A DNA stretch of 64,000 bases, taken from UHGV virus genome UHGV-0277313. One strand, written 5' to 3'. Below the pieces are notes generated by a model. It searched no databases. It was given only the letters and a program-made list of their open reading frames with translations, and was not told the DNA's origin. The position numbers and the translations under genes were made by a program. Within the stretch, counting starts at the first letter, position 1; every line of letters starts with the position of its first letter. This stretch comes from a virus. Shown piece after piece: positions 7,589-64,000 of the stretch.

Positions 7589-7644
7589 TTAAAAAGTCTT
7601 CCACGACAGCTCGAATAGATTAAAAACACACTACAAAAAAGAAC

Positions 7645-7683
7645 AACGCCGTGTGTTTTAAAAAACACACGGCGTTATTTTTA
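7645..7683 (-). terminator. rho-independent terminator (palindromic, usable on both strands)
   Basis: AACGCCGTGTG-loop-CACACGGCGTT stem flanked by A-run upstream and T-run downstream; sits just after stop of ORF 7699..8430. Confidence 0.6.
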
Positions 7684-7698
7684 TATCAACAATAAAGA

Positions 7699-8430
7699 TT
7701 ATGACCAACTATCAATCGCGTTCTTCGCTTCCTGTTTGACAGAATCATCAATCAAATCATCGTCTTCAACAGGTTGCGCTTCGGGCAGTTCACCTTCCGC
7801 TTCAGCAGAATCTTTATTTTCTTCAGGAACTGCAGGTGTCGCAACACGATCATTTGGCTGTTCTTCACGAATTTTATTCGCTAGAGCAGAACGCAAAGAG
7901 TCTTTATCATCTGCATCAACTCCAACAAATGAAGTCAAAGCTTTCAAAGGATCATGTTCTGTACCAAAATCATAGCTACGACCAACATATTCATTTACCA
8001 TTGAATTGTAAATGCTATTGAATTCCTGTAAATCATCTGATGAGAAAACATAAGAAGAATCTTCTTCTTCATTTTCCTCTTCAGGATTTTTTGTATTCGT
8101 CAGTTCAATAGCATATTCAGGAGCAACCCAAGGTTTACCATCAACTATTGAAGCTGATAAAACACAAAACGCGCCATCCTCTAACTCTTTATAAAGGATG
8201 ACATCATCACGAGTGACACCGTTATCATCAACAACAATATCACCACTCATTTCCCAACCTTCAGGTAAGGCTGGTTTAACCAAAGTGTTCATAAACGCTT
8301 CAAAATCTGCAGCATTTTTAAACACTGATTCATATAAGCTTTCAGATTCACCATAAACACTTTCAATGAAGGCTTTACGGCATTCAGCTGTCGCTTTTCT
8401 TGATTCATAAAGGATCATAATATTCTCCAA
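7699..8430 (-). CDS. hypothetical acidic protein
   Basis: 243-aa ORF, acidic C-terminal half. Confidence 0.5.
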   Translation of the reverse strand: MENIMILYESRKATAECRKAFIESVYGESESLYESVFKNAADFEAFMNTLVKPALPEGWEMSGDIVVDDNGVTRDDVILYKELEDGAFCVLSASIVDGKPWVAPEYAIELTNTKNPEEENEEEDSSYVFSSDDLQEFNSIYNSMVNEYVGRSYDFGTEHDPLKALTSFVGVDADDKDSLRSALANKIREEQPNDRVATPAVPEENKDSAEAEGELPEAQPVEDDDLIDDSVKQEAKNAIDSWS

Positions 8431-9995: not shown

Positions 9996-10032
9996 TTAAT
10001 TTTAGAACAAAACAATAATGTTCTAAAATTAA
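9996..10032. promoter_or_regulatory. perfect 14-bp inverted repeat (TTAATTTTAGAACA n9 TGTTCTAAAATTAA) in divergent intergenic region; candidate operator
   Basis: Read directly; located between divergently transcribed ORFs 9648..9977(-) and 10059..12392(+), 27-63 bp upstream of the + gene ATG. Confidence 0.5.
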
Positions 10033-36514: not shown

Positions 36515-38479
36515 TCAACCTATTCTCGATTCACCCATTTTTTTAATCAACATTTTAAATTGTTCTTCATTTATTTCTGGAATTCCTTCGTTTTCTAGAT
36601 GTTGTTTCCTTTCTCTAGTCCAAGACTCAAGATATGGATGTCCTTTGTCATTAAAATCTACAAACACTGAACAGTTCAATCCTTTATCTTTTCTTCTGGT
36701 TACGCGGCCGATTCTTTGAACATGTGAAATAATATTTTTTCCAGCATCCATCAAGATACCAACATCAAATTCAGGAACATCAATACCTTCATTAAAAACA
36801 ACGTTTCCAACAATTACACGATATCCTTCTTCACGAATTGCCTTTTTAATTGTTTCAGCATTTCCCTTGCGTTCGACAACAACATGTTGAACAATACCTT
36901 TTTTTGTTTTTTCAGTCGCGTCAATAGCTTCATAAATCGTATTACCACCACACATAAATAAAGCTTTAATTCCTTTATCCTTCATTTCACGTACTATTGC
37001 TTTTCCATGTTCAATACGATTAACCATAACCAAAATTTTTAAATTATTCTTGTAACAAAATTCAATACAACGATATGCTGCTTCATTCCTATTAAAACTT
37101 TCTGCAACATATTTCTTATATACATCTGTGCAAGATTTACAAAACACAAATGATTTTGGTGCATAATTAATATAATATGAATAAACTAAAGACGAATATC
37201 CTTTATCACGAAGATACTTTGATGAAATATAATAAAACGAATTACCAAACAACGCTTTTAAAACAATATCATCAACACATTGCCCACCTTCTTTAAAAGG
37301 CGATGCTGTAAACCCAATTAAATATTCAGGATTCGCAACCATTGCGGGTATTGCAATGCTCTGACAGCTGCCGTGATGACATTCATCAACTATAATAGCT
37401 CTTACACTTTTCAGATATCTCATAATTTTTGGATCGTTACGTTTCACCATATTCCAAACTAAATTATTAGTTGAAACAATAATATCTGAATTATCCAAAA
37501 CAGGGTTTCTGTTAAGATATTCAATTTTACGGTCAATACCACGAAGTTTAGCACGACCTTCAATTTGATTTAAAATATTTGTTCGATTATTAATAACTAA
37601 AATTTTCCCATCAATTAATTTAAACAAAGATGCAATGATTTCAGTTTTACCAGAATTATGTACAATCACACCGTTGCTTAATGCAAAATTATGCAAATCA
37701 CAATCAACCTCAATATCATATACAGGAATAGGGTCTACATAATGTTCAGCAAATACTTGCTCAACAACACGACTCCCATAAACACCAGCTACAGGTGATT
37801 CAGCTAAAAGATTGATAGCTTCTACATATTTTCCATTACTTAAAAGGAAAAGATGATCGGGCGTGCATTCAACTTTAACACCATCATTAAATTTAATCTT
37901 CAATGTATCTTTAACATATTTTGACAAATGTGCCGAAACAATTGAATGAAACTTTCCATCTGAACAAAAAACAGACTTTCCATTAAAATTCATACTTAAT
38001 GAACTTAAAGTTTCAAAACCAGTATTTGTTAAAATTAAAGTATCGCCAACAAAACAACCTGTCGCAGCTTCACAGATACCATGTTTATTAATCAAACATT
38101 TTAAAGTACCAATCAATTGATGTTCACGTACTTCAAAACCAGGTGAAGCTAGTGCCATTTCATTATACGCTTGCCTAACCTTTTGCATTGTTGACTTTAC
38201 ATCAATATCAATTACTTTACGCTGATCGATTACAGTTTCAAAATGAAAATACGGTAAAATCAAATCATCAACACAACCTGATTGTACATATAAAGAAGTT
38301 TTTGTATTTTCAACTTCCATATACAATGTAATCAAACTCTGCCCATCAGCTGACAGTAATGTCAAACGTTTTTTTATACGGTTAATAAAATCAGCATCTT
38401 CATCTGAAATTAAAGACCACATCGATTTCGTAATCGTTAACATTTTATTTCTCTCAATTAGACTGTGTTTGAAAAACAA
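36515..38479 (-). CDS. SF2 (DEAD/DEAH-like) DNA helicase with a mini-intein inside the Walker A motif
   Basis: Extein ...KHGICEAATG / SGKTEIIASL (AxxGSGKT); DECHH motif II; helicase C-terminal motifs (TASPFKEGG, HRIGRVTRR). Confidence 0.7.
   Translation of the reverse strand: MFFKHSLIERNKMLTITKSMWSLISDEDADFINRIKKRLTLLSADGQSLITLYMEVENTKTSLYVQSGCVDDLILPYFHFETVIDQRKVIDIDVKSTMQKVRQAYNEMALASPGFEVREHQLIGTLKCLINKHGICEAATGCFVGDTLILTNTGFETLSSLSMNFNGKSVFCSDGKFHSIVSAHLSKYVKDTLKIKFNDGVKVECTPDHLFLLSNGKYVEAINLLAESPVAGVYGSRVVEQVFAEHYVDPIPVYDIEVDCDLHNFALSNGVIVHNSGKTEIIASLFKLIDGKILVINNRTNILNQIEGRAKLRGIDRKIEYLNRNPVLDNSDIIVSTNNLVWNMVKRNDPKIMRYLKSVRAIIVDECHHGSCQSIAIPAMVANPEYLIGFTASPFKEGGQCVDDIVLKALFGNSFYYISSKYLRDKGYSSLVYSYYINYAPKSFVFCKSCTDVYKKYVAESFNRNEAAYRCIEFCYKNNLKILVMVNRIEHGKAIVREMKDKGIKALFMCGGNTIYEAIDATEKTKKGIVQHVVVERKGNAETIKKAIREEGYRVIVGNVVFNEGIDVPEFDVGILMDAGKNIISHVQRIGRVTRRKDKGLNCSVFVDFNDKGHPYLESWTRERKQHLENEGIPEINEEQFKMLIKKMGESRIG
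37655..38056 (-). mobile_element. mini-intein (134 aa) in SF2 helicase P-loop
   Basis: CFVGDTLIL...VECTPDHLF...VYDIEVDCDLHNFALSNGVIVHN then +1 Ser. Confidence 0.75.
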
Positions 38480-51983: not shown

Positions 51984-53954
51984 ATGTCTGGTTTTGCTAG
52001 CAAGCTTAAAAATATGATTCCTTTTTTAGAATCTGAAACAGATCAGCTAAAGAAGGTGGCTCGTCATATGACTGATGATTCTTTACGGTCTTTTGCCGCA
52101 AGGAACAATCTTCGCGTTCAGCGTACAGAAACTGGTGATTTTATTTCAGTTCCAGTTGATACACCTGATAACATTTTTATGTCTTTTTATGAAAGCTGGA
52201 CTTCAACATTTTCAAACACTGGTAGTTTTACTGGAAACAATAAAGCTAATATTTATGCAATGTATGATGTCATGGATGAAAACATGACTGAAGCAAGTAT
52301 GATGCTTGATACATATGCAGAAGAATCAATTTCTTTTGGTGTTATTGATAACGCTATCAAAGTTACTGTTTCAGATCCAAGTGCTCAAAAAGTTCTTGAT
52401 TCTGTTTTAGAAAAAAATAAAATTTTAAAACGTGCAAAAGCTGATATTCGCACAATGTGTAAATACGGTGATGCAGCATATGTTTTAGAGTTTCCTCAAT
52501 CTTTATATGATGCATATAATAATTTACCGTCTGATATTAAAGACGAAACCGATCCTGGTGAATTCTTTAATATTATGGATTTAGATATTTATCCAATAAA
52601 TCCAAAGAATTTCGTGATTAATGCTGATGAACAAGGTCGTGTAATTAATTATAAACAAGATAATTCATTACAGTCTGATTCGAAGAGAATCGTCTCTTCA
52701 CATACAATATTAACTAAAGTTTGGCAGCCGTGGCAGTTTGCAAGATTCTCAATTGATGACGATACTTTACGCCCGTATGGAAAGTCTATTCTTTACGGCA
52801 TGCGTACATTGTTTGATCAGTTATCAACACTCGAAGCTTTATTAGCAATGTCTAGAGCGTCAAAAGTACAACGTTTAGTAATCAAAGTTCCTGTACCCTC
52901 AAGTAATGCCACTGAAGCTTTTCAGCAGATTTCAAGAACAAAAGCACAGTTTAAATCAACAATCTTTTCTGATGCCGTAAGTACTAAATCAGGTCGTAAA
53001 GTGGCCGGATTAACTGAAGTGTTCTTCATGCCTTCAGGTCCAGATTATAGCATTGATACAATTAAAAACGATATTGATATTTCTTCAACTGAAGACGTTA
53101 ATCATTTTCTTGATAAAGCTTTACGTGCAACAAAATTACCTAAAGGATTCTTTTCAGGTGAAGATGGTGAAGATTCTGGTACAGCTTTAGCTGAAAGAGA
53201 CCAAAAATTTGGTAAAGCGTTATTGCAAGTTCAAAATGCATATGCAGAAGGTTTGGTTGATTTATGTTCATGTATTTTAGCACATGCTGGTTTTCTTGTT
53301 GATCAGCTTGAAATTACTGTTGAAATTCAGCGTCCAACTCGTTTATCAAAGAATTTAATTGAAGAATATAAAAACATTTTGGACTTCGTTTCTGCATTAC
53401 GTGAAGTTGTTCAGGAAGATAATCCAAAGATTAAATATCCGGCAACGAATTTAGCGCAGTTGTTAGTTTTAGCAGGTATTCCTGTTGATTATGTTAAGTT
53501 GTTATTGGCTCAAAATCCTGTAACTGTTGTTAGTGATACTATTATGTATGACTTGATGAGTTCGTTGGAAGTTAAGCCGTATAATTATGAAAAATCAAAT
53601 AAAAAAGATATTGATGCTCAATCTGATATTTCTAGAGATGAGAAAGGTCAGTTGATTGTTAATGATGATAATACAACTTCTGATATTGATATTAATAATA
53701 TCAAACAGGCAACTATTAATGATGTAGATACAAAATCCGAAGATGATTTGTCTATTGGGTTTGGTATTGAACCTGATCATTATAAAGTAAGTTCAGTAAG
53801 CAATTCAAAAGACCTTTATTTGTGTGAACGTCGTACAATTGTTAGAGTTACAAGTCGTGAAGTTTTAGCAGCAGAACCTTCTTTGAAAAATGAGCTTCTT
53901 GAAGTAGCTAAAGATTTGCGTGGAAAGAAGTTGTTGAATGAACAATCAAAATAA
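51984..53954 (+). CDS. putative portal protein (gp20-like) by synteny
   Basis: 656-aa ORF followed by two small ORFs, protease-scaffold and gp23-like capsid gene (T4 order 20-67-68-21-22-23); no direct motif check possible. Confidence 0.45.
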   Translation: MSGFASKLKNMIPFLESETDQLKKVARHMTDDSLRSFAARNNLRVQRTETGDFISVPVDTPDNIFMSFYESWTSTFSNTGSFTGNNKANIYAMYDVMDENMTEASMMLDTYAEESISFGVIDNAIKVTVSDPSAQKVLDSVLEKNKILKRAKADIRTMCKYGDAAYVLEFPQSLYDAYNNLPSDIKDETDPGEFFNIMDLDIYPINPKNFVINADEQGRVINYKQDNSLQSDSKRIVSSHTILTKVWQPWQFARFSIDDDTLRPYGKSILYGMRTLFDQLSTLEALLAMSRASKVQRLVIKVPVPSSNATEAFQQISRTKAQFKSTIFSDAVSTKSGRKVAGLTEVFFMPSGPDYSIDTIKNDIDISSTEDVNHFLDKALRATKLPKGFFSGEDGEDSGTALAERDQKFGKALLQVQNAYAEGLVDLCSCILAHAGFLVDQLEITVEIQRPTRLSKNLIEEYKNILDFVSALREVVQEDNPKIKYPATNLAQLLVLAGIPVDYVKLLLAQNPVTVVSDTIMYDLMSSLEVKPYNYEKSNKKDIDAQSDISRDEKGQLIVNDDNTTSDIDINNIKQATINDVDTKSEDDLSIGFGIEPDHYKVSSVSNSKDLYLCERRTIVRVTSREVLAAEPSLKNELLEVAKDLRGKKLLNEQSK

Positions 53955-54349: not shown

Positions 54350-54736
54350 TTGAGAGAATTGCACATGGATAATAATTTTAATAACCCGTTTATTTTTGAC
54401 AATAGACCTGTACCGTGTGTATCTGTTAAGTTTAGGACTCTTTTAAACACAAAGGATACAAATCTGTATCAGTTGTGGAACTCTTTTATTTCAAAAGTTA
54501 TGCGTGAAGAAAAGAGCAGATATAAATATTCACAGGTTACTTTAATTCGTGAGTATTTACAAAGTCATCCAAATTTTGATATTGTCAAAGCAGCGGAATA
54601 TACATCATATACAATGCGTGAGTCTGTTGCTAGCATCAAGCCAATTTATGATTTAATTGACATTGATACACTAGCTTTTGTTTTGGCAATTTCTGGCTTT
54701 AATGTCAGAGAATTTGTTCGTAATGAAAATTGCTAA
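54350..54736 (+). CDS. small prohead core protein candidate (gp68-like position)
   Basis: Synteny only. Confidence 0.3.
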   Translation: MRELHMDNNFNNPFIFDNRPVPCVSVKFRTLLNTKDTNLYQLWNSFISKVMREEKSRYKYSQVTLIREYLQSHPNFDIVKAAEYTSYTMRESVASIKPIYDLIDIDTLAFVLAISGFNVREFVRNENC

Positions 54737-56790
54737 TTGATGATATAGGATTGTTTAAGATGAAAAAGAAAACTCTTTTGATTGAACAATCAGACTTTTC
54801 CTTTCATGTAGAAAGAGAAAGCGAAGGGTTAAAAGAAGCTCTAGAGATCAAAGAAGACGGAAACGCGATTATTGTTAAACATGTTCCTTGCACGATTTTG
54901 GGCAAGAAAAATTTAAATGGTCGTATTTATCCTGCTGCAATGATGAAAAAGTCTTTAACAGATGCAAAACCACAGATCGATGCTCGTTCCTTGATTTGTC
55001 AGGCGCACGATCATCCTGAAGGTACATATGTTAAACCTATTGAAGCTTCACATCTAGTTGTTGATGCATATATCGAAGATGTTCCAAATGTTGGTCCGGT
55101 ATTGTTCAACGATTGGGAAATTTTACCAACAAGTCATGGTCGTGATTTAGCGGCCTTAATTGAAGCTGACGTTAGTTTAGGTACTTCAATTCGTGGTTTA
55201 GGTAATATGAGCGGTTCAGTTGTCGATGATTATGAATTTTTGGGAACTGATGTCGTAGGTAACCCTTCATCTGGTACGTTCACAGGAATGTTTAATCCAG
55301 CAAAAGCGACTAAAATGTCACGTAATGAAATGCGTGAAGCTTATGGTGATCCAGATGTTGCAGTAAATAAAAATATTGACATAATCATGCAAAATGCGTT
55401 AGCTGATAAAGAAGATGATGCTGCAGATGTTGGAAATATTAGTGCTCAAAAAGAATATAATGATATTCTTAAATTAGCTGAATATATTTATGTTGCTATT
55501 GTTAATAACAATAAATCTTTTGATAGTAAAGATGGTTTGTTAGATACAATGGCAGAAATTGTTTCTGAATATTTAGAGCTTAATAATTCTGAAGTTAAAG
55601 ATCAAGTCAATATGGCAATGTGTCAATTGCATGGTGCAAGTTGGTTTGAAGATTTAGACTCTTTAGTTAATCCTGTTAAAACAGATAAAGATAGTGAGTT
55701 CTCTAATCCAGAAAATGAAACGCCTGAAATGTCAGGCGAAGAACTAATTGATAATCAACAAACTCAAGTTAGTACGCTAGGAGAAAGTAAAATGGCTACA
55801 GTTGATCTTTCAGATTTACCTGAATTAAAACAGTTACAGAAAGGTGGCGACGCTACCGCTATTCATCAGGCACCTGAAGCTTTGGACCGTCCTGAAGAAG
55901 CTGTTACAGCTGAAGAAACACCAAATAAAGGTGCTTTGAAAGCTGGTCCAAATCCCGTCGTTGGAGATGCCCCTTCTGTTGAAGATATTAAAAAAGTTAA
56001 GTTCCAGGCTTATGATGCGAACAACATTCTTGCTCGTGAAAAAGTTAAAATGGAATCTCGTTGCACTGAATTAGCGCAGATGTTGGCGGAATCTCGTCGT
56101 AATCTGGCTGAAAAAGCTGAAAAGTATAATGAAGCTCAAAACGTTGTTAAGAGTCTTGTTGAACAATTATCAGTGTACAATACCGCGTTTGGTTCAAAAA
56201 CACCTGACGAAATTAAGGGTGAATATGAAAAACAGATCGCTGATCTGAAAGAATCCAGCGCTAAAGAATATGCTGTTCGTAAAGAAAAAGCGAATGCATA
56301 TGTTAAAGGTCTAATGACCGAATCTTCCGAAAAAGTCAAAAAGATTGCTGAAGACTTTAATGGTAAATTGTCTGTTAAAGAATCTGAAATCGCTGATTTG
56401 AATAAAAAGTTGGAAGAATCTGCGGCTGAAATGAAAGTTCTGAAAGCTGAATCTTATTCCGATAAACTTCGTATGGAAGAAGAATCCAAAAAAGCGCAGA
56501 AAGAAAAATATATGGAAGCTGCTAATAAAGCCGCTAAATTGAACGAAAAGCTGATCGAAGAATCTGCTAAAATGATTAAAGTCGCTTTAGAAGAATCCGC
56601 GAAAGCTCAAAAAGAACTGAAAAAAGAAATCGACATGCAAAAAGGCTTGTTCGAAAAAGTTCAGTCAATGTTCGATATTGCTTGCTCTATCAATGAAGCT
56701 TTGTCTGATGCCGTTATGAAAGAATGCATGGGCAAATGCGGAACTCGCCGTAAAGAATCAACTGCTCGCCGTTTGCGTGGTCACCGTTAA
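54730..56790 (+). CDS. prohead protease (gp21-like) fused to coiled-coil scaffold-like C-terminal region
   Basis: KKNLNGRIYPAAMMKK...CQAHDHPEG...SIRGLGNMSG aligns with T4 gp21 NKRLYPKRILEKA...GELNHPP...SSRGLGSLTD; C-terminal 300 aa E/K/A-rich heptad-like. Confidence 0.7.
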   Translation: MLIDDIGLFKMKKKTLLIEQSDFSFHVERESEGLKEALEIKEDGNAIIVKHVPCTILGKKNLNGRIYPAAMMKKSLTDAKPQIDARSLICQAHDHPEGTYVKPIEASHLVVDAYIEDVPNVGPVLFNDWEILPTSHGRDLAALIEADVSLGTSIRGLGNMSGSVVDDYEFLGTDVVGNPSSGTFTGMFNPAKATKMSRNEMREAYGDPDVAVNKNIDIIMQNALADKEDDAADVGNISAQKEYNDILKLAEYIYVAIVNNNKSFDSKDGLLDTMAEIVSEYLELNNSEVKDQVNMAMCQLHGASWFEDLDSLVNPVKTDKDSEFSNPENETPEMSGEELIDNQQTQVSTLGESKMATVDLSDLPELKQLQKGGDATAIHQAPEALDRPEEAVTAEETPNKGALKAGPNPVVGDAPSVEDIKKVKFQAYDANNILAREKVKMESRCTELAQMLAESRRNLAEKAEKYNEAQNVVKSLVEQLSVYNTAFGSKTPDEIKGEYEKQIADLKESSAKEYAVRKEKANAYVKGLMTESSEKVKKIAEDFNGKLSVKESEIADLNKKLEESAAEMKVLKAESYSDKLRMEEESKKAQKEKYMEAANKAAKLNEKLIEESAKMIKVALEESAKAQKELKKEIDMQKGLFEKVQSMFDIACSINEALSDAVMKECMGKCGTRRKESTARRLRGHR

Positions 56791-56811
56791 TTCTTCGGTC
56801 GTGATTATAAA

Positions 56812-56841
56812 AGAGGGGTGGTTAGTTCCGCCCCTCTTTTT
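56812..56841 (+). terminator. rho-independent terminator after protease-scaffold gene
   Basis: AGAGGGGTGG-ttagtt-CCGCCCCTCT-TTTTGTTTT. Confidence 0.75.
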
Positions 56842-56872
56842 GTTTTATTTAGAATATTTATATAAATTTTTA

Positions 56873-56901
56873 TTGACATATTGTTTTATTTGTTGTAATA
56901 T
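56873..56901 (+). promoter_or_regulatory. near-consensus sigma70-type promoter (TTGACA n17 TAATAT) upstream of endonuclease-like gene
   Basis: ttgacatattgttttatttgttgtaatat read directly, about 33 nt upstream of ATG 56934. Confidence 0.5.
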
Positions 56902-56933
56902 TATTTCATAAAATAAAGTTTAAGGTGTCTTTT

Positions 56934-58592
56934 ATGAAAAAAGCTATTTGTGAATTTTGCGGTAAAGAATATGAATATGATGAAAACAATATTCGTGTTC
57001 GTGAAGAAGGAAGAAAAGATTCGTATGATTCCTCGCGGTTTTGCTGTTTTCATTGTTTTTCAAAAGAACGTGTTAGAAAACAAAAAGAGACTCTATCTAA
57101 AAGATTGGGATACGAAGTAACCAGTACATTTCATCTTCCAGGAGTTCAAGAAAAAGCTCAAGCCACTAGTCTGAAAAGATACGGTACAAAATTCGGCGTG
57201 TGTTCAAAACAGTCCGTAGAAAAAAGAAGAAAAACGTGTAAAGAACGTTACGGATTTGAAATGCCGTTGCAGAATAAAGAAATTAAACAAAAGACGTATG
57301 ATTCAAATATAAAGAATCATAACGGTACGTATCACTTGCAAACCGAAGAAGTACGCGAAAAGTGTGCTGAAGGTCATCGTACTGATGAATATAGGGAAAA
57401 AGCAAGAAGATTGTTTGATGTTAAATCGAAACATACAGAGTTTGTTGAAAAGTATGGTGTAAGCAATCCTTTTCAATTAGAGTTTGTAAAAGAAAAAAGT
57501 AAAGAAACGTTGCTGAAAAAATACGGTGTTGAAAATATTTCTAAAGATGTTTGTACTTTAGAAAAACGTAGCAATACTCGTATGCTTAATGAAGCAATAA
57601 ATGTTGACAACTTAACAAAAGATTATTTGGAAGAAAATTTTGTTAAAGAAGAAAAGTTTCAATTAAAAGAAGCAGCGGATTATTTTAATGTAACATTGTT
57701 TGCAATGGATTCGTTTAAACAGCAGTTGGATATTGTTATTCCAAATGAAGAAAAGAAGAATAATACATTAGAAACAGAATTCTTTAATTTTATTTCTTCT
57801 TTAACTGATAAAGAGATTATAAGAAATACTAGAAATGTTATTTCGCCTTTGGAGTTGGATATTTATATTCCTACAATGAATCTAGCTTTTGAGTTCAATG
57901 GTGATTATTGGCATAGTGAAAATTTTGGCAGAAGTAAATTTTATCATATTGAGAAAACAAAACAATGTGAGAAAAAAGGAATTCGTTTAATTCATATTTG
58001 GGAACATGAATGGTTAAAAAATGATGAAAAGATCAAACTATTTATCAAAAGTCTTTTTGTTAAACGAGAAAAGATTCGAGCAAGTCAATGTGTGATCAAA
58101 GATCTATCGACAGAGGAGTTTGATAAATTTGCTGATAAATATCATTTGTTAGGTGCAACGTCAACTACAGCTGTTAAGTTTGGTTTGTTTTATGATGATA
58201 CTTTAGTTTCAGCAATAGGTTTGTCTTTTGATAGTAAACATGAATTCTGGAACTTGAAGCGTTACATTATTGGAGAATACCAAGTAATGGGTGGGTTTGA
58301 AAAATTATTTAAATATTTTATTGAAAAATACAATCCGGATAAAATTATTACTTTTGTTGAGTTGTCTAAATTTAAAGGTGATGTAAACTTTAAAAATGGT
58401 TTTGTATTAGATAAGGAATTAGCACCAGATTTCTTTTGGGTTATTAATGATGTCCGTGTAGATAAATGGACAGCATGGAGACAGTTTAAAGAAAGTGATG
58501 AAAATACCGCAGAGTATCAAAAAAAGATGAAAACTTTTGCATTAAAATGTTATGATGCAGGAAAAAGACGGTTAATTTGGAATAAAAGTTAA
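56934..58592 (+). CDS. homing-endonuclease-like protein: zinc ribbon + tandem RYGV-type repeats + Vsr-like PD-(D/E)xK nuclease domain + conserved C-terminal domain (paralog 1)
   Basis: CEFCGK...FCCFHC; repeats ERYGFEMPLQ / KYGVSNPFQ / KYGVENISK; PLELDIYIPTMNLAFEFNGDYWHSE...IRLIHIWEHEW resembles Vsr/DUF559-type nuclease core; ATG with AAGGTG RBS (track start is GTG). Confidence 0.6.
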   Translation: MKKAICEFCGKEYEYDENNIRVREEGRKDSYDSSRFCCFHCFSKERVRKQKETLSKRLGYEVTSTFHLPGVQEKAQATSLKRYGTKFGVCSKQSVEKRRKTCKERYGFEMPLQNKEIKQKTYDSNIKNHNGTYHLQTEEVREKCAEGHRTDEYREKARRLFDVKSKHTEFVEKYGVSNPFQLEFVKEKSKETLLKKYGVENISKDVCTLEKRSNTRMLNEAINVDNLTKDYLEENFVKEEKFQLKEAADYFNVTLFAMDSFKQQLDIVIPNEEKKNNTLETEFFNFISSLTDKEIIRNTRNVISPLELDIYIPTMNLAFEFNGDYWHSENFGRSKFYHIEKTKQCEKKGIRLIHIWEHEWLKNDEKIKLFIKSLFVKREKIRASQCVIKDLSTEEFDKFADKYHLLGATSTTAVKFGLFYDDTLVSAIGLSFDSKHEFWNLKRYIIGEYQVMGGFEKLFKYFIEKYNPDKIITFVELSKFKGDVNFKNGFVLDKELAPDFFWVINDVRVDKWTAWRQFKESDENTAEYQKKMKTFALKCYDAGKRRLIWNKS

Positions 58593-58623
58593 TTCATTAA
58601 TATTCTTGTAACTATTAATAAAT

Positions 58624-58660
58624 AAAGCGATTGACGTGATTGTTGGTCGCTTTATTTTTA
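58624..58660 (+). terminator. possible weak terminator
   Basis: AAAGCGA-16 nt loop-TCGCTTT then ATTTTTATTT. Confidence 0.35.
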
Positions 58661-58849
58661 TTTAAAATAACTTTTTTAACTTTTTTATATTTTTTGTACT
58701 TAATTACTTGTTCTTAAATTTCAGATAGTTAAGTCTATCATTCATTTTCCTATTCGCGGCGTTATTCGGTTAACATTTCTATCACTTTCTCTATACGTTT
58801 TTGTATAGGGTATTTAATCGTTTAATAAACCTTGATTAGGAGAATTATA

Positions 58850-60346
58850 ATGGGTTTTTTCCAAACAATTAACGAATCTGTTGCCGAAAAAGCGGCTCTA
58901 ACAGAAAGCCAGACAGTTGCTCGTGGTAAACGTGCTCTAGCTGAACATGCCGATTGGAAAGGCCGTTTCTCTAAATTGGAAGCGATGATGGAATCTGCCG
59001 ATGCTGCCGAAGCGAAAAAAGCTAGTGTTACAGCGCAGGTTATGTCAAATCTGTCCAATTTGATGGAACGCCAGAAAGAATATTACACTGAAGCGACATT
59101 CACTTCAATGTTAGGACCTATGGCTATGTTAACCCCGCGCGTTTTGGACATCGTTGGCGTGTTCTATCCAAACATGATTGCGCACCTGATTACAGACATC
59201 CAGGTTATGGATCGTTCAACAGGTGAAATCTTCGTTCTGCGCCCTCGCTATGGTTCTGACGCTGCTGGTGTTACAGCTGGTCAGGAAATGTGGGTTAATC
59301 AGACAGACGGAACCTATGCTTCTGAATATCGTTCAGCTTCTGCGAACGGTGGTGAAACAGACGGGACCACAACCGAATTTGCGGTTTCTGGTTTGACAGC
59401 TTCTGGTGGTCCTTTGCGTCGTGGTTCAGTTACCATTAAATTGGCTGGCATTGTTGTTGGTCGTGATGACGCTCATGGCATCATGGTTGGTAAAGATCGT
59501 GAAGGTCATGTTGTTTCCGGTACAGTTGATTATGACGCTGGTGACATTACAGTTGCTTTCTCTGCCGCTCCTTCAGCTGGCAAGAGCATTATGATCGACG
59601 CGTATGTTGATTCAGAAGAAGATCCTTCTTTGATCAATGAAGTCAACTTTGACATTCAGGCTGTTCCTGTTACAGCCCGTGCGCATCCTTTGCGTTACAC
59701 TGTTTCTGCCCAGGCGACATTGGTTGCTTCAGCGCACCTTGACGTTGATGTCAATGAAGTTCTGACAAACATTGCTGCTGGCGCGATCAAACAGGAACGT
59801 GACGTTGCTCTGGTCAACATGTTGGTTGCTGCTGCGACACATCTGGATACTCTCGACTTCGACCTGGCTGATGCTACAGTCAACTATCGTAACAAACGCG
59901 ATCGTTTCGCTGATATCGAACTGAAAGTCAACGAAGCCCAGACGAAGATTCAGACCGTTGCTGGCCGTGGTGGCGTTTCCTTCATTGTTGCTGGTGCGAA
60001 TGCTGCGAACTGCTTCCGTTTGGTTGAAGGTTTCGAAGCGGCTCCTGAAGCGACAAATGCGACAGTTGGTCCTTACAAGATGGGTGCTATTCGCAATGGT
60101 ACCGTTCCTGTTATCTGCGTTCCTATTTCCCGTACTCTGAAAGCTGACGATTTCGTTATCGGATTCCGTGGCTTCCAGGCTGGTGATAGCGCGACAGTGT
60201 TGGCGGAATGGATTCCTTTGTATTTCACCCCATTGTTCGAAGCCCCCAATTTACAGAATAAACGTGGTCTGATGAGTTTGTACGACATGTTGACAAACCG
60301 TCCTGAATACCTCGTTTCTGGTAAAGTTAAAGGCTATAACGCTTAA
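58850..60346 (+). CDS. major capsid protein (T4 gp23-like)
   Basis: NMIAHLITDIQVMDRSTGEIFVLRPRYG aligns with T4 gp23 NLIAFDICGVQPMNSPTGQVFALRAVYG; ATG at 58850 with AGGAGA RBS (track start 58832 is TTG); GC-richer codon usage. Confidence 0.9.
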   Translation: MGFFQTINESVAEKAALTESQTVARGKRALAEHADWKGRFSKLEAMMESADAAEAKKASVTAQVMSNLSNLMERQKEYYTEATFTSMLGPMAMLTPRVLDIVGVFYPNMIAHLITDIQVMDRSTGEIFVLRPRYGSDAAGVTAGQEMWVNQTDGTYASEYRSASANGGETDGTTTEFAVSGLTASGGPLRRGSVTIKLAGIVVGRDDAHGIMVGKDREGHVVSGTVDYDAGDITVAFSAAPSAGKSIMIDAYVDSEEDPSLINEVNFDIQAVPVTARAHPLRYTVSAQATLVASAHLDVDVNEVLTNIAAGAIKQERDVALVNMLVAAATHLDTLDFDLADATVNYRNKRDRFADIELKVNEAQTKIQTVAGRGGVSFIVAGANAANCFRLVEGFEAAPEATNATVGPYKMGAIRNGTVPVICVPISRTLKADDFVIGFRGFQAGDSATVLAEWIPLYFTPLFEAPNLQNKRGLMSLYDMLTNRPEYLVSGKVKGYNA

Positions 60347-60367
60347 TTTAATTAAGTGTTATAAAGG

Positions 60368-60402
60368 AAGCGGAAGCAAGAAATTGCTTCCGCTTTTCTT
60401 TT
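60368..60402 (+). terminator. strong rho-independent terminator after capsid gene
   Basis: 12-bp stem AAGCGGAAGCAA-gaaa-TTGCTTCCGCTT followed by TTTCTTTTGTTT. Confidence 0.85.
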
Positions 60403-60449
60403 GTTTGTGATACAATTAATTTAGTTATTTTATTTTGAGGAAATTTATT

Positions 60450-62264
60450 TTGAATAGTAATTGGCAAGATGAGTTAAGAAAATTTTTCACTGAATATGAT
60501 TTTTCTGGATTTGTTTTGGAAATCAATAGTGGAAAAGAGTTTCAGTTTGGCAGTATCAGTCAAAATAAAAAGTTATTTTTAAATGTACAAAAAGAGTTGT
60601 CAAATTATTTTTCAAAACCTGGTGATTTAGGTGCATGTTTACTTTACCTAAAAGATCATTCAATAGATGAGTTGCTTAACAAATTAGAATGTCCAGTTTG
60701 TCATAAATTTAATGGTGTGTTTAGATTCAACAGACAACGTTGTGATGAGCATGTTTTTTGTTCAAGAGATTGTCGATATTCGTTAAAAGGTAAAACTTTA
60801 TTGATGAATCGATATAAAGAGAAAACAGGGTACGATAGTCCATATAGCAACCCAAAAGTTCAACAGAAACGAAAAGAGAACTTTTTGAGGAACTATGGTG
60901 TTGAATCGCCTATGCAAGTAGAAGAGTTTAAGAAAAGAAATATAGAAAGCAATAGAAACAATCACTGTGGTCTTCTAGCATGTCAGACTGAAGAAGTTAA
61001 GTTAAAAATAAAAGAAACGAATTTAAAGAATCACCATGGTGTGTTTAATTTGCAATTACCTGAAACAAAAGAAAAGTTAATTAAGCTGTCAAATGAACGA
61101 TATGGTGTAGATTTTCCTATAGCGAATAGTGACATCAGAAACAGACAGGAAAGGTTTTACGATGGTGTTGGTTTAGCATCATATATAATTAGAAAGAAAG
61201 CAGAAGAAACGTTTGGTGGGCCTTTAAACGGGTCTAATCCAATTATTTTTGAAAAGATGAAACAAACGGTAGAAAACAAAACAGGAAAGAGTTTTGAAGA
61301 AGCTGTTACTGAAAACATGCAACGTGGTTTAAAAGAAAAGTTTGGTGATGAAATAGGTTTTGCCAATGAAAAGATTGCAGCTAAAATTCAGAAACAGGTT
61401 GTTGAAAAATTTAACGTTCCTTATTTTTGTTTAACTGATAAATGTAGACAGGCAAATAAAAAGACAATTTCAAAAAGAAATGTGATGTTTGCCGAAAAGT
61501 TGAGAAAGTTAGGTTATGAAGTTGGTTTAGATTCGGTAAAGCTTGAGACTTTTTCATACGATATCTGTTTGGAAAAAGAAAAGATTTTGATAGAAATAGA
61601 TCCATCTTTTACACATAATTCGACAAGAAACCCGTTTGGTTCTGTACGGTTACCAGATTATCATTTAAGGAAATCTGAAGTTGCAAGAAGGTTTGGTTAT
61701 AGGTGCATTCACATTTTTGATTGGGATGATGAAAAAAAAGTTTTAGGTTTATTTGAAAAGAGCGAAAGAATCTATGCTAGAAAGTGTGAAGTTAGGGTAG
61801 TTGATTTTGAAAGTTGTTCAGAATTCTTAAATCGCTATAGTTTAACGAATTGTTTAACAAAAGAAGATGTTTGTTTATGTTTGTTTTATAATGAACTATT
61901 AGTTCAAATTATGGTTTTTGGAAAACCTAGAAAAGATAAAGACATTCAATATGAATTGTTGCATTTTTGTAGCAGAAAAGGTTTTAGAATCATTGGTGGT
62001 GTAAGCAGGTTATTCAGCTATTTCAAAAATAAATTTAAACCTGAATCATTAGTTTCATATTGTGATTTTTCAAAATTTGAAGGAGCTGTTTATGAAATTT
62101 TAGGGTTTCATAAAGTTGACGAATTGATACCAGTTTGTCATCTATCCAAAAAGAAACAACAATTCATTATTGAAGATAGTTGTGAAAAGATAGATTTGAT
62201 AGAAAAAGGTTTTGTAGAAGTTTTTGATTGTGGCTATAAAAAATATTTGTTTTGTGTAAAATAA
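60450..62264 (+). CDS. homing-endonuclease-like protein (paralog 2; zinc ribbon + RYGV-type repeats + Vsr-like nuclease + C-terminal domain); apparent TTG start
   Basis: CPVCHKF...CDEHVFCSRDCRYS; RNYGVESPMQ, ERYGVDFPI repeats; ILIEIDPSFTHNS...RCIHIFDWDDE nuclease core; no in-frame ATG near 5' end, TTG at 60435 or 60450 (latter has GAGGAA RBS). Confidence 0.55.
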   Translation: MNSNWQDELRKFFTEYDFSGFVLEINSGKEFQFGSISQNKKLFLNVQKELSNYFSKPGDLGACLLYLKDHSIDELLNKLECPVCHKFNGVFRFNRQRCDEHVFCSRDCRYSLKGKTLLMNRYKEKTGYDSPYSNPKVQQKRKENFLRNYGVESPMQVEEFKKRNIESNRNNHCGLLACQTEEVKLKIKETNLKNHHGVFNLQLPETKEKLIKLSNERYGVDFPIANSDIRNRQERFYDGVGLASYIIRKKAEETFGGPLNGSNPIIFEKMKQTVENKTGKSFEEAVTENMQRGLKEKFGDEIGFANEKIAAKIQKQVVEKFNVPYFCLTDKCRQANKKTISKRNVMFAEKLRKLGYEVGLDSVKLETFSYDICLEKEKILIEIDPSFTHNSTRNPFGSVRLPDYHLRKSEVARRFGYRCIHIFDWDDEKKVLGLFEKSERIYARKCEVRVVDFESCSEFLNRYSLTNCLTKEDVCLCLFYNELLVQIMVFGKPRKDKDIQYELLHFCSRKGFRIIGGVSRLFSYFKNKFKPESLVSYCDFSKFEGAVYEILGFHKVDELIPVCHLSKKKQQFIIEDSCEKIDLIEKGFVEVFDCGYKKYLFCVK

Positions 62265-62276
62265 ATTGAAAATTTT

Positions 62277-62305
62277 GTTGACATTTATTGTGTTTATGAT
62301 ACAAT
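62277..62305 (+). promoter_or_regulatory. near-consensus sigma70-type promoter (TTGACA n16 TACAAT)
   Basis: ttgacatttattgtgtttatgatacaat, about 30 nt upstream of ATG 62336; homologous to the promoter at 56873. Confidence 0.5.
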
Positions 62306-62335
62306 ATGATTATATATTGTAAGAGGTTTTTTGTA

Positions 62336-64000
62336 ATGTATAGTATTAAAGATATTGATGCTTCTCGTTTAAGAAGGGATTATTCTAAATATCCTTTAAT
62401 TGATGATGAGTATATTACAAAAGAAGAGTTTGAATATCTGTATTTAGAAGTGAATTTGTCTTTTGAAGAGATTGATATTTATTTGCAATCAAGACCTGGT
62501 ACTGCATTAAATAAAAACAGAAGAAAACCGAATGCAAAGAATTCTAATAAGTTTGGTTTAAAAAAAACAAGTGCATTAATTGCTGCTAAAATGAGAAATG
62601 CAACGTTTGACAGATATGGTGTAACAACGCCTTTTGCTTTAAATGAAGTAAAAGAAAAGGTTGTACTGTTGAATAAAGAAAGAATGCGGGATAAAGAAAA
62701 ACGCGATCAGATTGTTAAGAAAATAAAAGAAACGACTTTAAAACGTTTTGGTGTTGATAATGCAATGAAATGTAAAGAGGTGTATGAGAAGGGTGCCAAA
62801 AAGAGAGTTGAGTTATATGGAACTTGCAACAATAATGAAAAAATAAAAAAGACAAAATTTGAACGTTATGGGGATAGTGGGTATTTAAATAAAGAGAAAG
62901 CAAAAGAAACATTAAAGAATAATTTTGGTGTAGAGTCGCCTTTTGAATCGGTTGAAATTAAAAATAAAGCGATGGAATCTGTTAAAGAAAAATATGGTGT
63001 TGATAATGTTTTTAAGCTGAAAGAGTTTCAGAAAAAAGCAAAAGATGTAATTTTTGAAAGATATGGCGTTGATAAATTTTCTTTAACAGGTGTTCAGCAC
63101 CCTGAAAACTATAATAAAGATTTTATTGAAAAGAATTTTATAGAAGGTGGGTATTTTAAAATAGAAGAAGCATTGAGTTATTTTAATGTAAACAGATCGT
63201 CAATGGATTCTTTTAAGCGCAGAAATAATATCATTATTCCAAATAAACATGAAAAACATCAAATGCAAAATCAGATTTATGAATTTATTAAATCGATATA
63301 TGCAGGTAATGTTATTTGTGATACAAGAAAGGTTATTTCACCTTTAGAGTTGGACATTTATATTCCTGATTTAAGAATAGCAATAGAGTTTGATGGTTTG
63401 ATGTTTCATTCAGTATCGACTATTGAGGAAGATAGATCGTTGCGAGGTGAAATTATGATGAAAGACTATCATAAAGTCAAAACTGACATGTGTGAAGAAT
63501 TAGGAATTAAACTTTTTCACATTTTTGAGAATGAATGGTTAGATTTAAATAAGCAAGCTATTTGGAAGTCAGTCATTAGAAATGCAATTGTTCAAGATAA
63601 TTATATTTATGCAAGAAATTGTGTTGTAAAAAATGTAGATAAAACATTAAAGAAAAAGTTTTTGGAAGAAAATCATTTACAGGGTGATTGCATTTCAGAA
63701 ATTAATTTAGGTTTGTTTTATAATGATGAATTAGTGTCATTGATGTCTTTTGGCAAACCAAGATTTTCTAAAAAATATGATTATGAATTGTTGCGATTTT
63801 GTACTAAATTAAATTTGCAAGTTCGTTTTGCCGCGTCAAAATTGTTAAGTCATTTTAAAAAATTGATGAATACAAATACAAATTTAGTGTCGTATGCAAA
63901 CAGACGTTGGTCGAATGGACATTTGTATGAATCATTGTGTTTTGAAAAGCAGAATACAAAAGTTGAGCCTTCATATTTCTATTTTCGAAATAGTGAGAAA
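62336..64000 (+). CDS. homing-endonuclease-like protein (paralog 3, no N-terminal zinc ribbon), 3' end beyond window
   Basis: AAGAGG RBS; repeats DRYGVTTPFA, KRFGVDNAM, ERYGDSGYL, NNFGVESPFE, EKYGVDNVF, ERYGVDKFS; PLELDIYIPDLRIAIEFDGLMFHS...IKLFHIFENEW nuclease core; C-terminal YIYARNCVVKNVD domain shared with paralogs; open to window end. Confidence 0.6.
   Translation, partial: MYSIKDIDASRLRRDYSKYPLIDDEYITKEEFEYLYLEVNLSFEEIDIYLQSRPGTALNKNRRKPNAKNSNKFGLKKTSALIAAKMRNATFDRYGVTTPFALNEVKEKVVLLNKERMRDKEKRDQIVKKIKETTLKRFGVDNAMKCKEVYEKGAKKRVELYGTCNNNEKIKKTKFERYGDSGYLNKEKAKETLKNNFGVESPFESVEIKNKAMESVKEKYGVDNVFKLKEFQKKAKDVIFERYGVDKFSLTGVQHPENYNKDFIEKNFIEGGYFKIEEALSYFNVNRSSMDSFKRRNNIIIPNKHEKHQMQNQIYEFIKSIYAGNVICDTRKVISPLELDIYIPDLRIAIEFDGLMFHSVSTIEEDRSLRGEIMMKDYHKVKTDMCEELGIKLFHIFENEWLDLNKQAIWKSVIRNAIVQDNYIYARNCVVKNVDKTLKKKFLEENHLQGDCISEINLGLFYNDELVSLMSFGKPRFSKKYDYELLRFCTKLNLQVRFAASKLLSHFKKLMNTNTNLVSYANRRWSNGHLYESLCFEKQNTKVEPSYFYFRNSEK

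What the first reader, a model, noticed from the sequence alone, without database searches (positions are those of the whole stretch)
56873..64000. Three paralogous Vsr-like endonuclease genes bracket the major capsid gene, two behind near-consensus sigma70 promoters
Each ORF combines tandem approx. 35-aa RYGV..P[FM]Q repeats with a nuclease core resembling Vsr/DUF559-type PD-(D/E)xK enzymes (P.ELDIYIP...A.EF.G..[WF]H...........I...H[IW][FW][ED].EW) plus a shared C-terminal Y.YAR.C.V..VD......FL...HL.G domain. Two of the three also carry a zinc ribbon. Paralog 1 has TTGACA-17-TAATAT and paralog 3 TTGACA-16-TACAAT, with homologous upstream DNA, as expected of self-contained mobile cassettes. 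Insertion on both sides of gp23 mirrors seg/mob homing-gene hotspots in T4-like phages. This nuclease type may correspond to the Vsr-related homing endonuclease family reported with fractured genes.
Basis: partly seen in the sequence, partly recalled or inferred. Interest (0 to 1): 0.7.

Follow-up and report, generated by a model that had tools for sequence, protein, structure and literature searches.

The report
Hef-type homing endonuclease genes flanking capsid gene
Three distantly related copies of a known selfish phage gene type (Hef-like homing endonucleases) sit on both sides of the major capsid gene of a jumbo phage. This is an ordinary, already documented arrangement; the one curious detail is that their tail domain descends from the DNA-modifying enzyme Mom.

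Summary
Three paralogous ORFs (24-34% identity) bracket a gp23-type capsid gene. Hef1 is at 56934-58592, Hef2 at 60450-62264, and Hef3 starts at 62336 and runs off the window (605 aa in orthologs). Each lies in an intergenic spacer behind its own sigma70-like promoter.

They are Hef-type free-standing homing endonucleases of the Vsr-like EDxHD family. They match PHROG 3339 at 1e-55 to 1e-104. A profile of the nuclease core hits only PDB 3R3P (I-Bth0305I, E 1.7e-8). Hef3 is 36% identical to the Hef-like gene at the nrdA-nrdB locus of Salmonella phage SG1.

The shared C-terminal domain is a Mom-like GNAT fold: the top PDB fold hit is Mu Mom 8BV8, and the profile-profile E-value is 1.8e-5. Each of the three has lost at least one residue essential in Mom.

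Distribution is patchy among distant relatives. Within the immediate clade the genes are fixed and under purifying selection (dN/dS 0.11-0.25). Hef-like genes already sit next to gp23 in phages KARL-1 and JC221. Verdict: new members of a known kind, modest interest.

The parts
56809..56840 (+). Terminator-like hairpin ending the prohead protease/scaffold gene; left edge of the Hef1 cassette
   Evidence: 13-bp stem, 7 GC pairs, T run; sequence read
56873..56901 (+). Hef1 promoter, TTGACA-17-TAATAT
56934..58592 (+). Hef1 (paralog 1), 552 aa. Zn ribbon aa 1-45; about 23-aa helical DUF7487 repeats aa 53-203; EDxHD/Vsr-like nuclease aa 272-372 (57747-58049); Mom-like GNAT domain aa 376-552 (58059-58589)
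   Evidence: AF2 model mean pLDDT 93.5
58620..58657 (+). Terminator-like hairpin after Hef1
58850..60346 (+). gp23-type major capsid gene (context and likely target region), uninterrupted here. GC 0.476 and GC3 0.40, against about 0.30 and 0.20 in all other ORFs
60366..60397 (+). Terminator-like hairpin after the MCP
60408..60416 (+). Hef2 extended -10 promoter element TGaTACAAT (no good -35)
   Evidence: sequence read; alignment
60450..62264 (+). Hef2 (paralog 2), 604 aa from TTG. Zn ribbon aa 79-111; repeats aa 117-304; nuclease aa 338-434 (61461-61751); Mom-like domain aa 435-604 (61752-62261)
   Evidence: (604-aa ortholog call)
62278..62305 (+). Hef3 promoter, TTGACA-16-TACAAT with TG
62336..64000 (+). 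Hef3 (paralog 3), 555 of about 605 aa; cut by the window end. No Zn ribbon; repeats aa 69-249; nuclease aa 304-415 (63245-63580); Mom-like domain from aa 416 (63581-). Belongs to the same clade as the Hef-like genes of phages SG1, KARL-1, JC221 and CP220

Best explanation
These are three free-standing homing endonuclease genes of the Hef type, the Vsr-like EDxHD nuclease family. Each is a self-contained cassette inserted in an intergenic spacer next to the major capsid gene of a jumbo phage (a close relative has a genome of about 314 kb) with T4-like head genes.

Shown here:
- Family membership.
- Intact nuclease residues in all three: D309, E320, H327, H338 and K341 in Hef1 numbering.
- Own promoters and flanking terminators.
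- Patchy presence among distant relatives.
- Purifying selection.

Inferred mechanism: the N-terminal Zn ribbon, the array of about 23-aa helical repeats and the Mom-derived C-terminal domain together bind a long DNA site. The Vsr-like core then cuts it. In a mixed infection with a relative that lacks the gene, the cut falls in or beside the capsid gene. Repair from the Hef-carrying genome copies the cassette, together with flanking capsid markers, into the rival. This is homing or marker exclusion, as shown experimentally for U5 Hef at nrdB.

The Mom-like domain has lost at least one residue essential for Mom catalysis in each of the three proteins. It therefore most likely serves in DNA recognition, possibly by binding a flipped adenine, and not in DNA modification.

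In this phage lineage the three genes are now long-term residents and not recent arrivals.
For: Family:
- PHROG 3339 'homing endonuclease' at 2e-84, 6e-55 and 3e-104.
- The nuclease-core profile hits only 3R3P/I-Bth0305I, E 1.7e-8. The family D and H fall on the D196A and H213A positions.
- Taylor 2011 includes Hef-type enzymes in the EDxHD family.
- Hef3 is 35.9% identical (E 4e-57) to the SG1 Hef-like gene, which lies between nrdA and nrdB, the locus of the original U5 hef.
- 413 phage records carry relatives, many annotated Hef or homing endonuclease.

Cassette structure.

Patchiness:
- The ancestral order scaffold-MCP, with no gene between, is seen in L015, L048, L049, L052, L053, L065 and L070.
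- A Hef-like gene or fragment lies within about 1 kb downstream of the MCP in L051, L056, L064, L069 and L033 only.
- In L032 two Hef-like genes lie inside the MCP gene.

Recurrent linkage to the MCP:
- Hef1-clade members lie beside gp23-type genes in five different gene orders.
- KARL-1 and JC221 carry Hef between gp23 and gp24.

The paralogs are closer to genes in other phages than to each other, so they did not arise by recent local duplication. The genes are functional: dN/dS 0.11-0.25 against L011 and L014.

Mom-like domain:
- 15 of 30 family members hit Pfam PF25680.
- hhalign gives 78% probability, E 1.8e-5.
- The Foldseek top hit is 8BV8.
- Catalytic-site patterns are HREESN, SHSDSY and HRSNRY, against HRSDRY in Mom (essential residues from PMC13219725 and PMC7261163).
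- The same module is fused to a GIY-YIG nuclease in L032. This fits a reusable DNA-binding module.
Against: - No near-identical relative with an empty site was found. In the four closest genomes (87-88% nt identity) all three genes sit in the same places. They diverge about as much as their neighbours and show no sharp identity boundary. Current mobility is therefore not demonstrated.
- No target site could be defined.
- Nuclease activity, site specificity and the role of the repeats and the Mom-like domain are all inferred.
- The fifth EDxHD residue (D222 of I-Bth0305I) is His in this clade.
- At family level most Mom active-site residues are conserved (H 96%, R 96%, S 71%, D 83%, Y 84%). Conservation this strong is more than a pure DNA-binding scaffold would need.
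Confidence: 0.7

Rival explanations
1. Single-chain modification-plus-restriction weapons. The Mom-like domain modifies adenines in the phage's own DNA, and the fused REase-fold domain cuts unmodified host or rival-phage DNA. This is the reading that Iyer et al. 2021 gave for Mom-REase fusions in jumbo phages.
For: - The architecture is exactly that described in PMC7824862.
- The PA5oct proteins counted there as 'momylating enzymes' are structural matches annotated 'putative homing endonuclease'.
- Homology of the C-terminal domain to Mom is real.
- 24 of 123 family members keep the full H-R-S-D-R-Y constellation.
- The Mom-specific R111 is 96% conserved across the family.
Against: None of the three window proteins keeps all residues shown to be essential in Mu Mom:
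- Hef1 has S124->E, D149->E, R151->S and Y159->N, and the same pattern holds throughout its clade.
- Hef2 has H58->S, R111->H and R151->S.
- Hef3 has D149->N, as do SG1, KARL-1, JC221 and CP220.

None of the three reaches the Pfam Mom gathering score, and there is no PADLOC hit. U5 Hef behaves as a homing enzyme at nrdB. Clustering at a single conserved gene is expected for homing, not for genome-wide restriction.
Confidence: 0.1
2. Domesticated residents. These were once homing genes but are now fixed and vertically inherited. They are kept because they benefit the phage, for example by excluding co-infecting relatives or promoting recombination around the capsid gene, and they no longer move.
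For: All three are conserved in place in L001/L014, L011-L013 and (Hef1 only) L045, with dN/dS 0.11-0.25 and no identity boundary. Selfish endonuclease genes that have reached fixation are normally expected to decay.
Against: This is not exclusive of the main explanation, since marker exclusion uses the same biochemistry. The sample of close relatives is tiny: effectively three lineages. The wider family is patchily distributed and turns up in many different loci, so the type as a whole is mobile.
Confidence: 0.15
3. Local tandem duplication of one ancestral gene around the capsid gene, as opposed to three separate insertions.
For: The three share the same overall architecture, the same strand and the same neighbourhood. 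Hef2 and Hef3 are adjacent, 71 bp apart.
Against: - Pairwise identity among the three is only 24-34%.
- Each is closer to genes in other phages. Hef3 is 38.5% identical to CP220 and 36% to SG1. Hef1 is 37% identical to the L032 Hef1-like gene. Hef2 is 33% identical to the L032 Hef2-like gene.
- Their Mom-site patterns and N-termini differ by clade.
Confidence: 0.05

Closest known systems
Hef (homing endonuclease-like function) of T4-related phage U5, and annotated Hef-like genes in Straboviridae, Campylobacter phages and jumbo phages
   Same: - Sequence homology over repeats, nuclease and C-terminal domain: Hef3 against SG1, KARL-1, JC221 and CP220 is 34-39% identical, E 1e-57 to 1e-84.
- Same nuclease residues and the same Mom-site pattern HRSNRY.
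- Free-standing and intergenic, next to conserved essential genes, including gp23 in KARL-1 and JC221.
   Different: - Three divergent copies are clustered around one gene.
- Hef1 and Hef2 belong to more distant clades with an added N-terminal Zn ribbon and further-degenerated Mom sites.
- The window genes face the same way as the capsid gene, whereas the KARL-1 and JC221 copies are on the opposite strand.
- No activity data exist for these genes.
I-Bth0305I (PDB 3R3P), prototype of the EDxHD family of Vsr-like homing endonucleases found with fractured genes
   Same: The catalytic core is homologous (profile E 1.7e-8). E, D, N/E and H positions are conserved. It is phage-borne and selfish.
   Different: - I-Bth0305I is intron-encoded, uses NUMOD-type N-terminal DNA-binding motifs and has no C-terminal domain.
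- The window proteins are free-standing, use DUF7487 repeats with or without a Zn ribbon, and carry a Mom-like domain.
- The fifth motif residue D222 is His (H338) here.
Phage Mu Mom (PDB 8BV8, Pfam PF25680), the Gly-tRNA-dependent adenine-modifying GNAT
   Same: - Fold and colinear motifs of the C-terminal domain, including the Mom-specific Arg (R111) and a two-helix insertion between the last strands.
- It is the top PDB fold hit.
   Different: - The domain here is fused to a nuclease.
- The three window copies each lack at least one essential Mom residue and score below the Pfam threshold.
- No evidence of modification activity.
Mom-REase fusions of jumbo phages (Iyer, Anantharaman, Krishnan, Burroughs, Aravind 2021)
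   Same: This is the same architecture. It is probably the same protein family described from a different angle: PA5oct members match structurally.
   Different: That paper predicts a restriction-modification-like role. The residue analysis here argues against active modification for these three proteins.
T4 seg/mob free-standing homing endonuclease genes; the mobE-split nrdA of phage Aeh1
   Same: Intergenic cassettes beside conserved genes, marker exclusion or co-conversion logic, and occasional splitting of the target gene (seen here in relative L032).
   Different: They belong to different nuclease families (GIY-YIG, HNH).

Membership tests
EDxHD (Vsr-like) homing endonuclease family | Catalytic domain homologous to I-Bth0305I/Vsr | tested here: met
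   Profile A3 against all PDB sequences gives 3r3p_A as the only hit, E 1.7e-8, over 94 profile positions. Pfam MTES_1575 (a related REase fold) is only weak: 0.0026 and 0.056, below cut-off.
EDxHD (Vsr-like) homing endonuclease family | Motif residues E170, D196, N208, H213 and D222 of I-Bth0305I | tested here: inconclusive
   D309 (100% conserved in the family) and H327 (99%) align to D196 and H213. E280 (89%) aligns to E170, and N322/E320 to N208. D222 aligns to H338 (99% His), and K341 to K225. Four of the five positions are kept; the fifth is systematically His.
EDxHD (Vsr-like) homing endonuclease family | Site-specific double-strand cleavage that drives gene conversion | not testable with these tools
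   Requires enzyme assays or phage crosses.
Hef-type free-standing homing endonucleases | Sequence homology to Hef / Hef-like genes, including the nrdA-nrdB locus copy | tested here: met
   BLASTP against SG1 Hef-like (between nrdA and nrdB): Hef3 4e-57, Hef1 4e-27, Hef2 7e-20. PHROG 3339 at 1e-55 to 1e-104. The U5 Hef sequence itself was not available.
Hef-type free-standing homing endonucleases | Free-standing intergenic gene with its own expression signals beside a conserved gene | tested here: met
   The same site class (flank of gp23) is seen in KARL-1 and JC221.
Hef-type free-standing homing endonucleases | Presence/absence polymorphism among related genomes | tested here: inconclusive
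   Absent from the scaffold-MCP junction in L015 and six IMG/VR relatives. Present or absent downstream of the MCP among about 25 distant loci. All close relatives (87-88% nt identity) carry all three genes.
Mom family (PF25680) DNA adenine modification enzymes | Mom-type GNAT fold and sequence profile | tested here: met
   Foldseek top hit is 8bv8_A, E 1.3e-6. hhalign A4 against A6: probability 78%, E 1.8e-5, 124 columns. 15 of 30 family members hit PF25680, best 6.4e-9.
Mom family (PF25680) DNA adenine modification enzymes | Score above Pfam's gathering threshold | tested here: not met
   Hef3 C-terminus scores 18.3 bits against a 27.1 cut-off. Hef1 and Hef2 give no hit.
Mom family (PF25680) DNA adenine modification enzymes | Essential residues R111, S124, D149 and R151 (plus H58 and Y159) | tested here: not met
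   Hef1 is H-R-E-E-S-N, Hef2 is S-H-S-D-S-Y and Hef3 is H-R-S-N-R-Y. The essential residues are taken from PMC13219725 and PMC7261163.
Vsr / DUF559 repair-type endonucleases | Pfam Vsr, DUF559 or MTES_1575 above threshold; stand-alone small enzyme | tested here: not met
   Only sub-threshold MTES_1575 matches (18.3 and 13.9 bits against 38.2). The proteins are 552-605 aa multidomain fusions.
Known anti-phage defence systems (PADLOC) | Match to a defence-system protein model | tested here: not met
   No hit at E up to 0.01 for any of the three.

The most novel reading that the evidence does not exclude
The Mom-derived domain of Hef-type endonucleases may be a working adenine pocket and not a dead scaffold. 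In the Hef clade proper (Hef3, SG1, KARL-1, JC221, CP220), five of six Mom active-site residues are strictly kept and Asp149 is uniformly Asn. About a fifth of the wider family keeps all six.

The domain could flip and read, or in some members aminoacylate, an adenine in the target site. That would couple target recognition or self-immunity to the nuclease. These enzymes would then be the first homing endonucleases built on a DNA hypermodification enzyme, and some of them would be single-chain homing restriction-modification units.
Probability: 0.15. Interest if true: 0.7.

Novelty: new member of a known kind. Interest (0 to 1): 0.33.

Why it matters
For annotation, these three ORFs and more than a thousand metagenomic relatives currently labelled only 'DUF7487' can be named Hef-type EDxHD homing endonucleases with a Mom-like C-terminal domain.

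The case also shows that two strands of the literature describe the same proteins: 'Hef homing endonucleases' and 'Mom-REase fusions predicted to momylate DNA'. Residue patterns can separate members that might still modify DNA from those that almost certainly cannot.

Biologically it adds one more example of the capsid gene as a magnet for selfish nucleases. In one relative this goes as far as breaking the capsid gene apart. No new principle is involved.

Tried and rejected
- Megablast of 56000-64000 against 50,697 phage records gave no match, so the source phage is not a sequenced isolate.
- phmmer of single proteins against PDB gave only a weak GNAT hit. Profiles were needed.
- NCBIfam gave nothing meaningful. 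PADLOC gave nothing.
- Rfam on the region gave only sub-threshold noise.
Nothing turned up between 55% and 96% MCP identity except genomes that carry the genes. Exact insertion points and target sites could therefore not be defined.
- Genes downstream of Hef3 in L011 have no counterparts in the distant loci.
- A sliding identity plot against L011 and L014 shows no recombination boundary at the cassettes.
- I considered that the high G+C of the capsid gene (0.476, against about 0.30) marks horizontal transfer promoted by the nucleases. I rejected this because capsid genes of distant relatives show the same excess over their own genomes.
- The full-length model searched against PDB was saturated by GNAT hits, so it gave no independent structural check of the nuclease fold.
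- The literature library holds nothing on DUF7487. The original Hef paper (PMC1275590) is not held.


Full report
**What is there.** The + strand of 56.9-64.0 kb carries three long ORFs around a gp23-type major capsid gene.
- Hef1 is 56934-58592 (552 aa).
- The capsid gene is 58850-60346 (Pfam Gp23 4e-29).
- Hef2 is 60450-62264 (604 aa from a TTG behind GAGGA; orthologs are called at 604 aa).
- Hef3 starts at 62336 and runs off the window after 555 codons. Its orthologs have 605 aa.

Upstream lie a T4-type portal (51984-53954) and a prohead protease/scaffold gene (54730-56790). The three ORFs find each other by tblastn at 24-34% identity (E 1e-22 to 1e-49), and the other 57 kb of the window holds no further copy.

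**Expression signals.**
- Hef1 sits behind TTGACA-17-TAATAT (56873).
- Hef3 sits behind TTGACA-16-TACAAT with an upstream TG (62278; 11 of 12 matches, the best in the region).
- Terminator-like hairpins close the scaffold gene, Hef1 and the capsid gene (11 sites against 2.9 expected).

TTGACA-type promoters are enriched in the whole window (13 against 6.1+-2.7 in shuffles), and many lie before other genes. These are therefore the phage's normal promoter class. The claimed homology of the DNA upstream of Hef1 and Hef3 is marginal: score 22 against 17.0+-2.4, reached by 19 of 500 shuffles.

**What the proteins are.** All three hit Pfam DUF7487 (1e-15 to 1e-19) over the repeat region and PHROG 3339 'homing endonuclease' (6e-55 to 3e-104) over nearly full length. 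tblastn finds relatives in 413 phage records, many annotated Hef, Hef-like or homing endonuclease. I aligned the three with 120 metagenomic homologs and read off family-wide conservation:
- Four Zn-ribbon cysteines.
- A Tyr-Gly in each repeat.
- A nuclease core with E280, E307, D309, E320, H327, Y337-H338, K341 and E357.
- A C-terminal domain with its own set of near-invariant residues.

**Nuclease core.** A 36-sequence profile of the core, searched against every PDB sequence, returns one hit only: 3R3P, the catalytic domain of I-Bth0305I (E 1.7e-8). The crystallised protein is the D196A/H213A mutant, and the family's invariant Asp and His align exactly to those two alanines. Taylor et al. 2011 defined the Vsr-like 'EDxHD' homing endonuclease family on this enzyme and stated that phage Hef-type endonucleases belong to it (PMC3239194). 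The only deviation is that the last Asp of the motif (D222) is a conserved His in this clade. All three window proteins keep the core residues.

**Link to experimentally studied Hef.** The original Hef of phage U5 lies between nrdA and nrdB and cuts nrdB (PMC2988022). However, Salmonella phage SG1 has an annotated Hef-like gene at exactly that locus. Hef3 matches it at 35.9% identity (E 4e-57), Hef1 at 4e-27 and Hef2 at 7e-20.

**The C-terminal domain is Mom-like.**
- A 30-sequence profile gives weak GNAT hits in the PDB. Scanning the members against Pfam puts 15 of 30 in PF25680, the Mom family (best 6.4e-9).
- The full-length Hef1 model has the crystal structure of phage Mu Mom (8BV8) as its top PDB match (E 1.3e-6), ahead of generic acetyltransferases.
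- A profile-profile comparison with 39 Mom homologs gives 78% probability and E 1.8e-5 over 124 columns.

That alignment pairs the following residues (Hef1 numbering with Mu Mom numbering): H404 with H58, R443 with R111, position 456 with S124, 476 with D149, 478 with R151, and 485 with Y159. R111, S124, D149 and R151 are essential in Mom, and R111 is Mom-specific within the GNAT superfamily (PMC13219725; PMC7261163).

Across the family these six positions are 96% H, 96% R, 71% S, 83% D, 31% R and 84% Y. Of 123 members, 24 keep all six. The window proteins read as follows:
- Hef1 is H-R-E-E-S-N, the same in all eleven members of its clade.
- Hef2 is S-H-S-D-S-Y.
- Hef3 is H-R-S-N-R-Y. The Hef-like proteins of SG1, KARL-1, JC221 and CP220 share this last pattern.

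Each of the three thus lacks at least one residue whose mutation inactivates Mom, and none reaches Pfam's Mom threshold. Iyer et al. 2021 had already noted Mom domains fused to REase-fold nucleases in jumbo phages. They predicted that these proteins modify phage DNA while restricting others (PMC7824862). The PA5oct proteins they counted are structural matches annotated 'putative homing endonuclease'. So the two strands of literature describe one family. For these three proteins the residue losses favour a non-catalytic role in DNA recognition. In relative L032 the same module is fused to a SegE-type GIY-YIG nuclease, which is the behaviour expected of a portable DNA-binding module.

**Are they mobile?** Close relatives exist: a 313.7-kb contig (L001/L014/L047), a 160-kb contig (L011) and shorter ones. 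They align to the window at 87-88% nucleotide identity in one block and carry all three genes in the same places. Comparisons with L011 and L014 give these figures:

| Gene | Protein identity | dN/dS |
|---|---|---|
| Hef1 | 87-92% | 0.11-0.12 |
| Hef2 | 84-85% | 0.20-0.25 |
| Hef3 | 89% | 0.12-0.14 |
| Portal and scaffold | 91-92% | within the neighbours' 0.05-0.12 |
| Capsid | 97% | within the neighbours' 0.05-0.12 |

No identity boundary coincides with the cassettes. Within this clade the genes are therefore fixed, functional residents.

Further out the picture is patchy.
- L015 (capsid 54% identical) has the scaffold gene ending 90 bp before the capsid gene, with no Hef.
- Six IMG/VR relatives show the same portal-scaffold-capsid order without an intervening gene.
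- Among about 25 distinct distant loci, a Hef-like gene or fragment lies just downstream of the capsid gene in five or six and is absent from the rest.
- Hef1-clade genes at 74%, 51%, 49% and 37% identity all lie near gp23-type genes, but in different local gene orders.
- In cultured phages, KARL-1 and JC221 carry a Hef-like gene between the major head and head vertex genes.

The capsid-gene flank is thus a recurrent and already visible landing site. Each window paralog is closer to genes in other phages than to its neighbours, which argues against recent local duplication.

**Assessment.** The genes are new members of a known kind, namely Hef-type EDxHD homing endonuclease genes, in a known kind of place. 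Three things remain inferred: actual cleavage specificity, current mobility, and what the repeat array and the Mom-like domain do. The least ordinary aspect is the strict conservation of most Mom active-site residues in the Hef clade, with a uniform Asp-to-Asn change. This leaves open that the pocket binds, or in some relatives modifies, an adenine.

Noticed in passing
L032 (= L008/L066; contig Ga0123356_10000036) 5956-11759: In a relative the capsid gene is broken into three pieces. Codons 1-106 end at 6267 and are followed by a stop and a hairpin. Next comes a remnant copy of the unbroken junction, ATTGACATTGTTGGTGTCTTCTAA ('IDIVGVF*'). The window capsid gene has GACATCGTTGGCGTGTTC at 59147-59164. 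Two opposed Hef-like genes follow (6379-8010 on + and 9529-7985 on -), and the capsid sequence resumes at 10001. It is either a giant intron or a split capsid gene. No Rfam intron match was found for this 3.7-kb piece, and there is no good ribosome-binding site before the ATG at 9998.
   Followed up: partly
L032 10186-10683: A genuine group I intron (Rfam RF00028, 68.4 bits, E 3e-16) interrupts the same capsid gene at the position of codon 149. It carries a small decayed nuclease-like ORF (10403-10561).
   Followed up: partly
L032 11886-13373 and 13499-14821: Downstream of that capsid gene, one ORF fuses a Mom-like N-terminal domain to a SegE-type GIY-YIG nuclease (PF19835, 2.8e-7). The next ORF has a Zn finger, DUF7487 repeats and a Vsr-like 'GNYWHGH' nuclease without a Mom domain. 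The modules are shuffled among endonuclease types.
   Followed up: partly
window 58850-60346: The capsid gene has G+C 0.476 and GC3 0.40, against about 0.30 and 0.17-0.30 in every other long ORF of the window. Capsid genes of distant relatives show the same excess over their own genomes. It therefore looks like codon and amino-acid bias of a very highly expressed gene, not foreign origin.
   Followed up: yes
window 14174-17521 (-) and 18460-21213 (-): Two large ORFs contain intein splicing domains with HNH_3 endonucleases (Pfam 4.9e-32 and 9.9e-34, several stretches each). The host proteins were not identified. The genome is heavily colonised by selfish elements of several kinds.
   Followed up: no
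window 36515-38479 (-): A ResIII/Helicase_C helicase has a weak match to the C-terminal end of an intein splicing domain at residues 249-275 (5.4e-6, below cut-off). It may be a mini-intein or a remnant.
   Followed up: no
window 58789-58810: A 9-bp hairpin (CTCTATACG-TTTT-TGTATAGGG) lies 40 bp before the capsid start codon. The surrounding spacer is 94-95% identical to L011 and L014, more conserved than most coding sequence nearby. It may be a 5' UTR element of the capsid mRNA.
   Followed up: no
L045 6816-9880: In the relative whose Hef1 is 74% identical, about 3.2 kb with six small ORFs separates the scaffold gene from Hef1, while Hef1 stays 260 bp upstream of the capsid gene. The scaffold-capsid spacer is a variable region.
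   Followed up: no
L046 1-1127 and 2773-3297: A phage contig with a Hef1-clade gene and a Hef-like gene abutting its capsid gene also encodes a Cas12f1/TnpB-like protein and a stand-alone DUF559 nuclease close by.
   Followed up: no
window 274-5820 (-), 5870-7588 (-), 10059-12392 (+): Very large ORFs (1848, 572 and 777 aa) have no Pfam match at E up to 0.001. No tRNA genes are found in the 64 kb.
   Followed up: no
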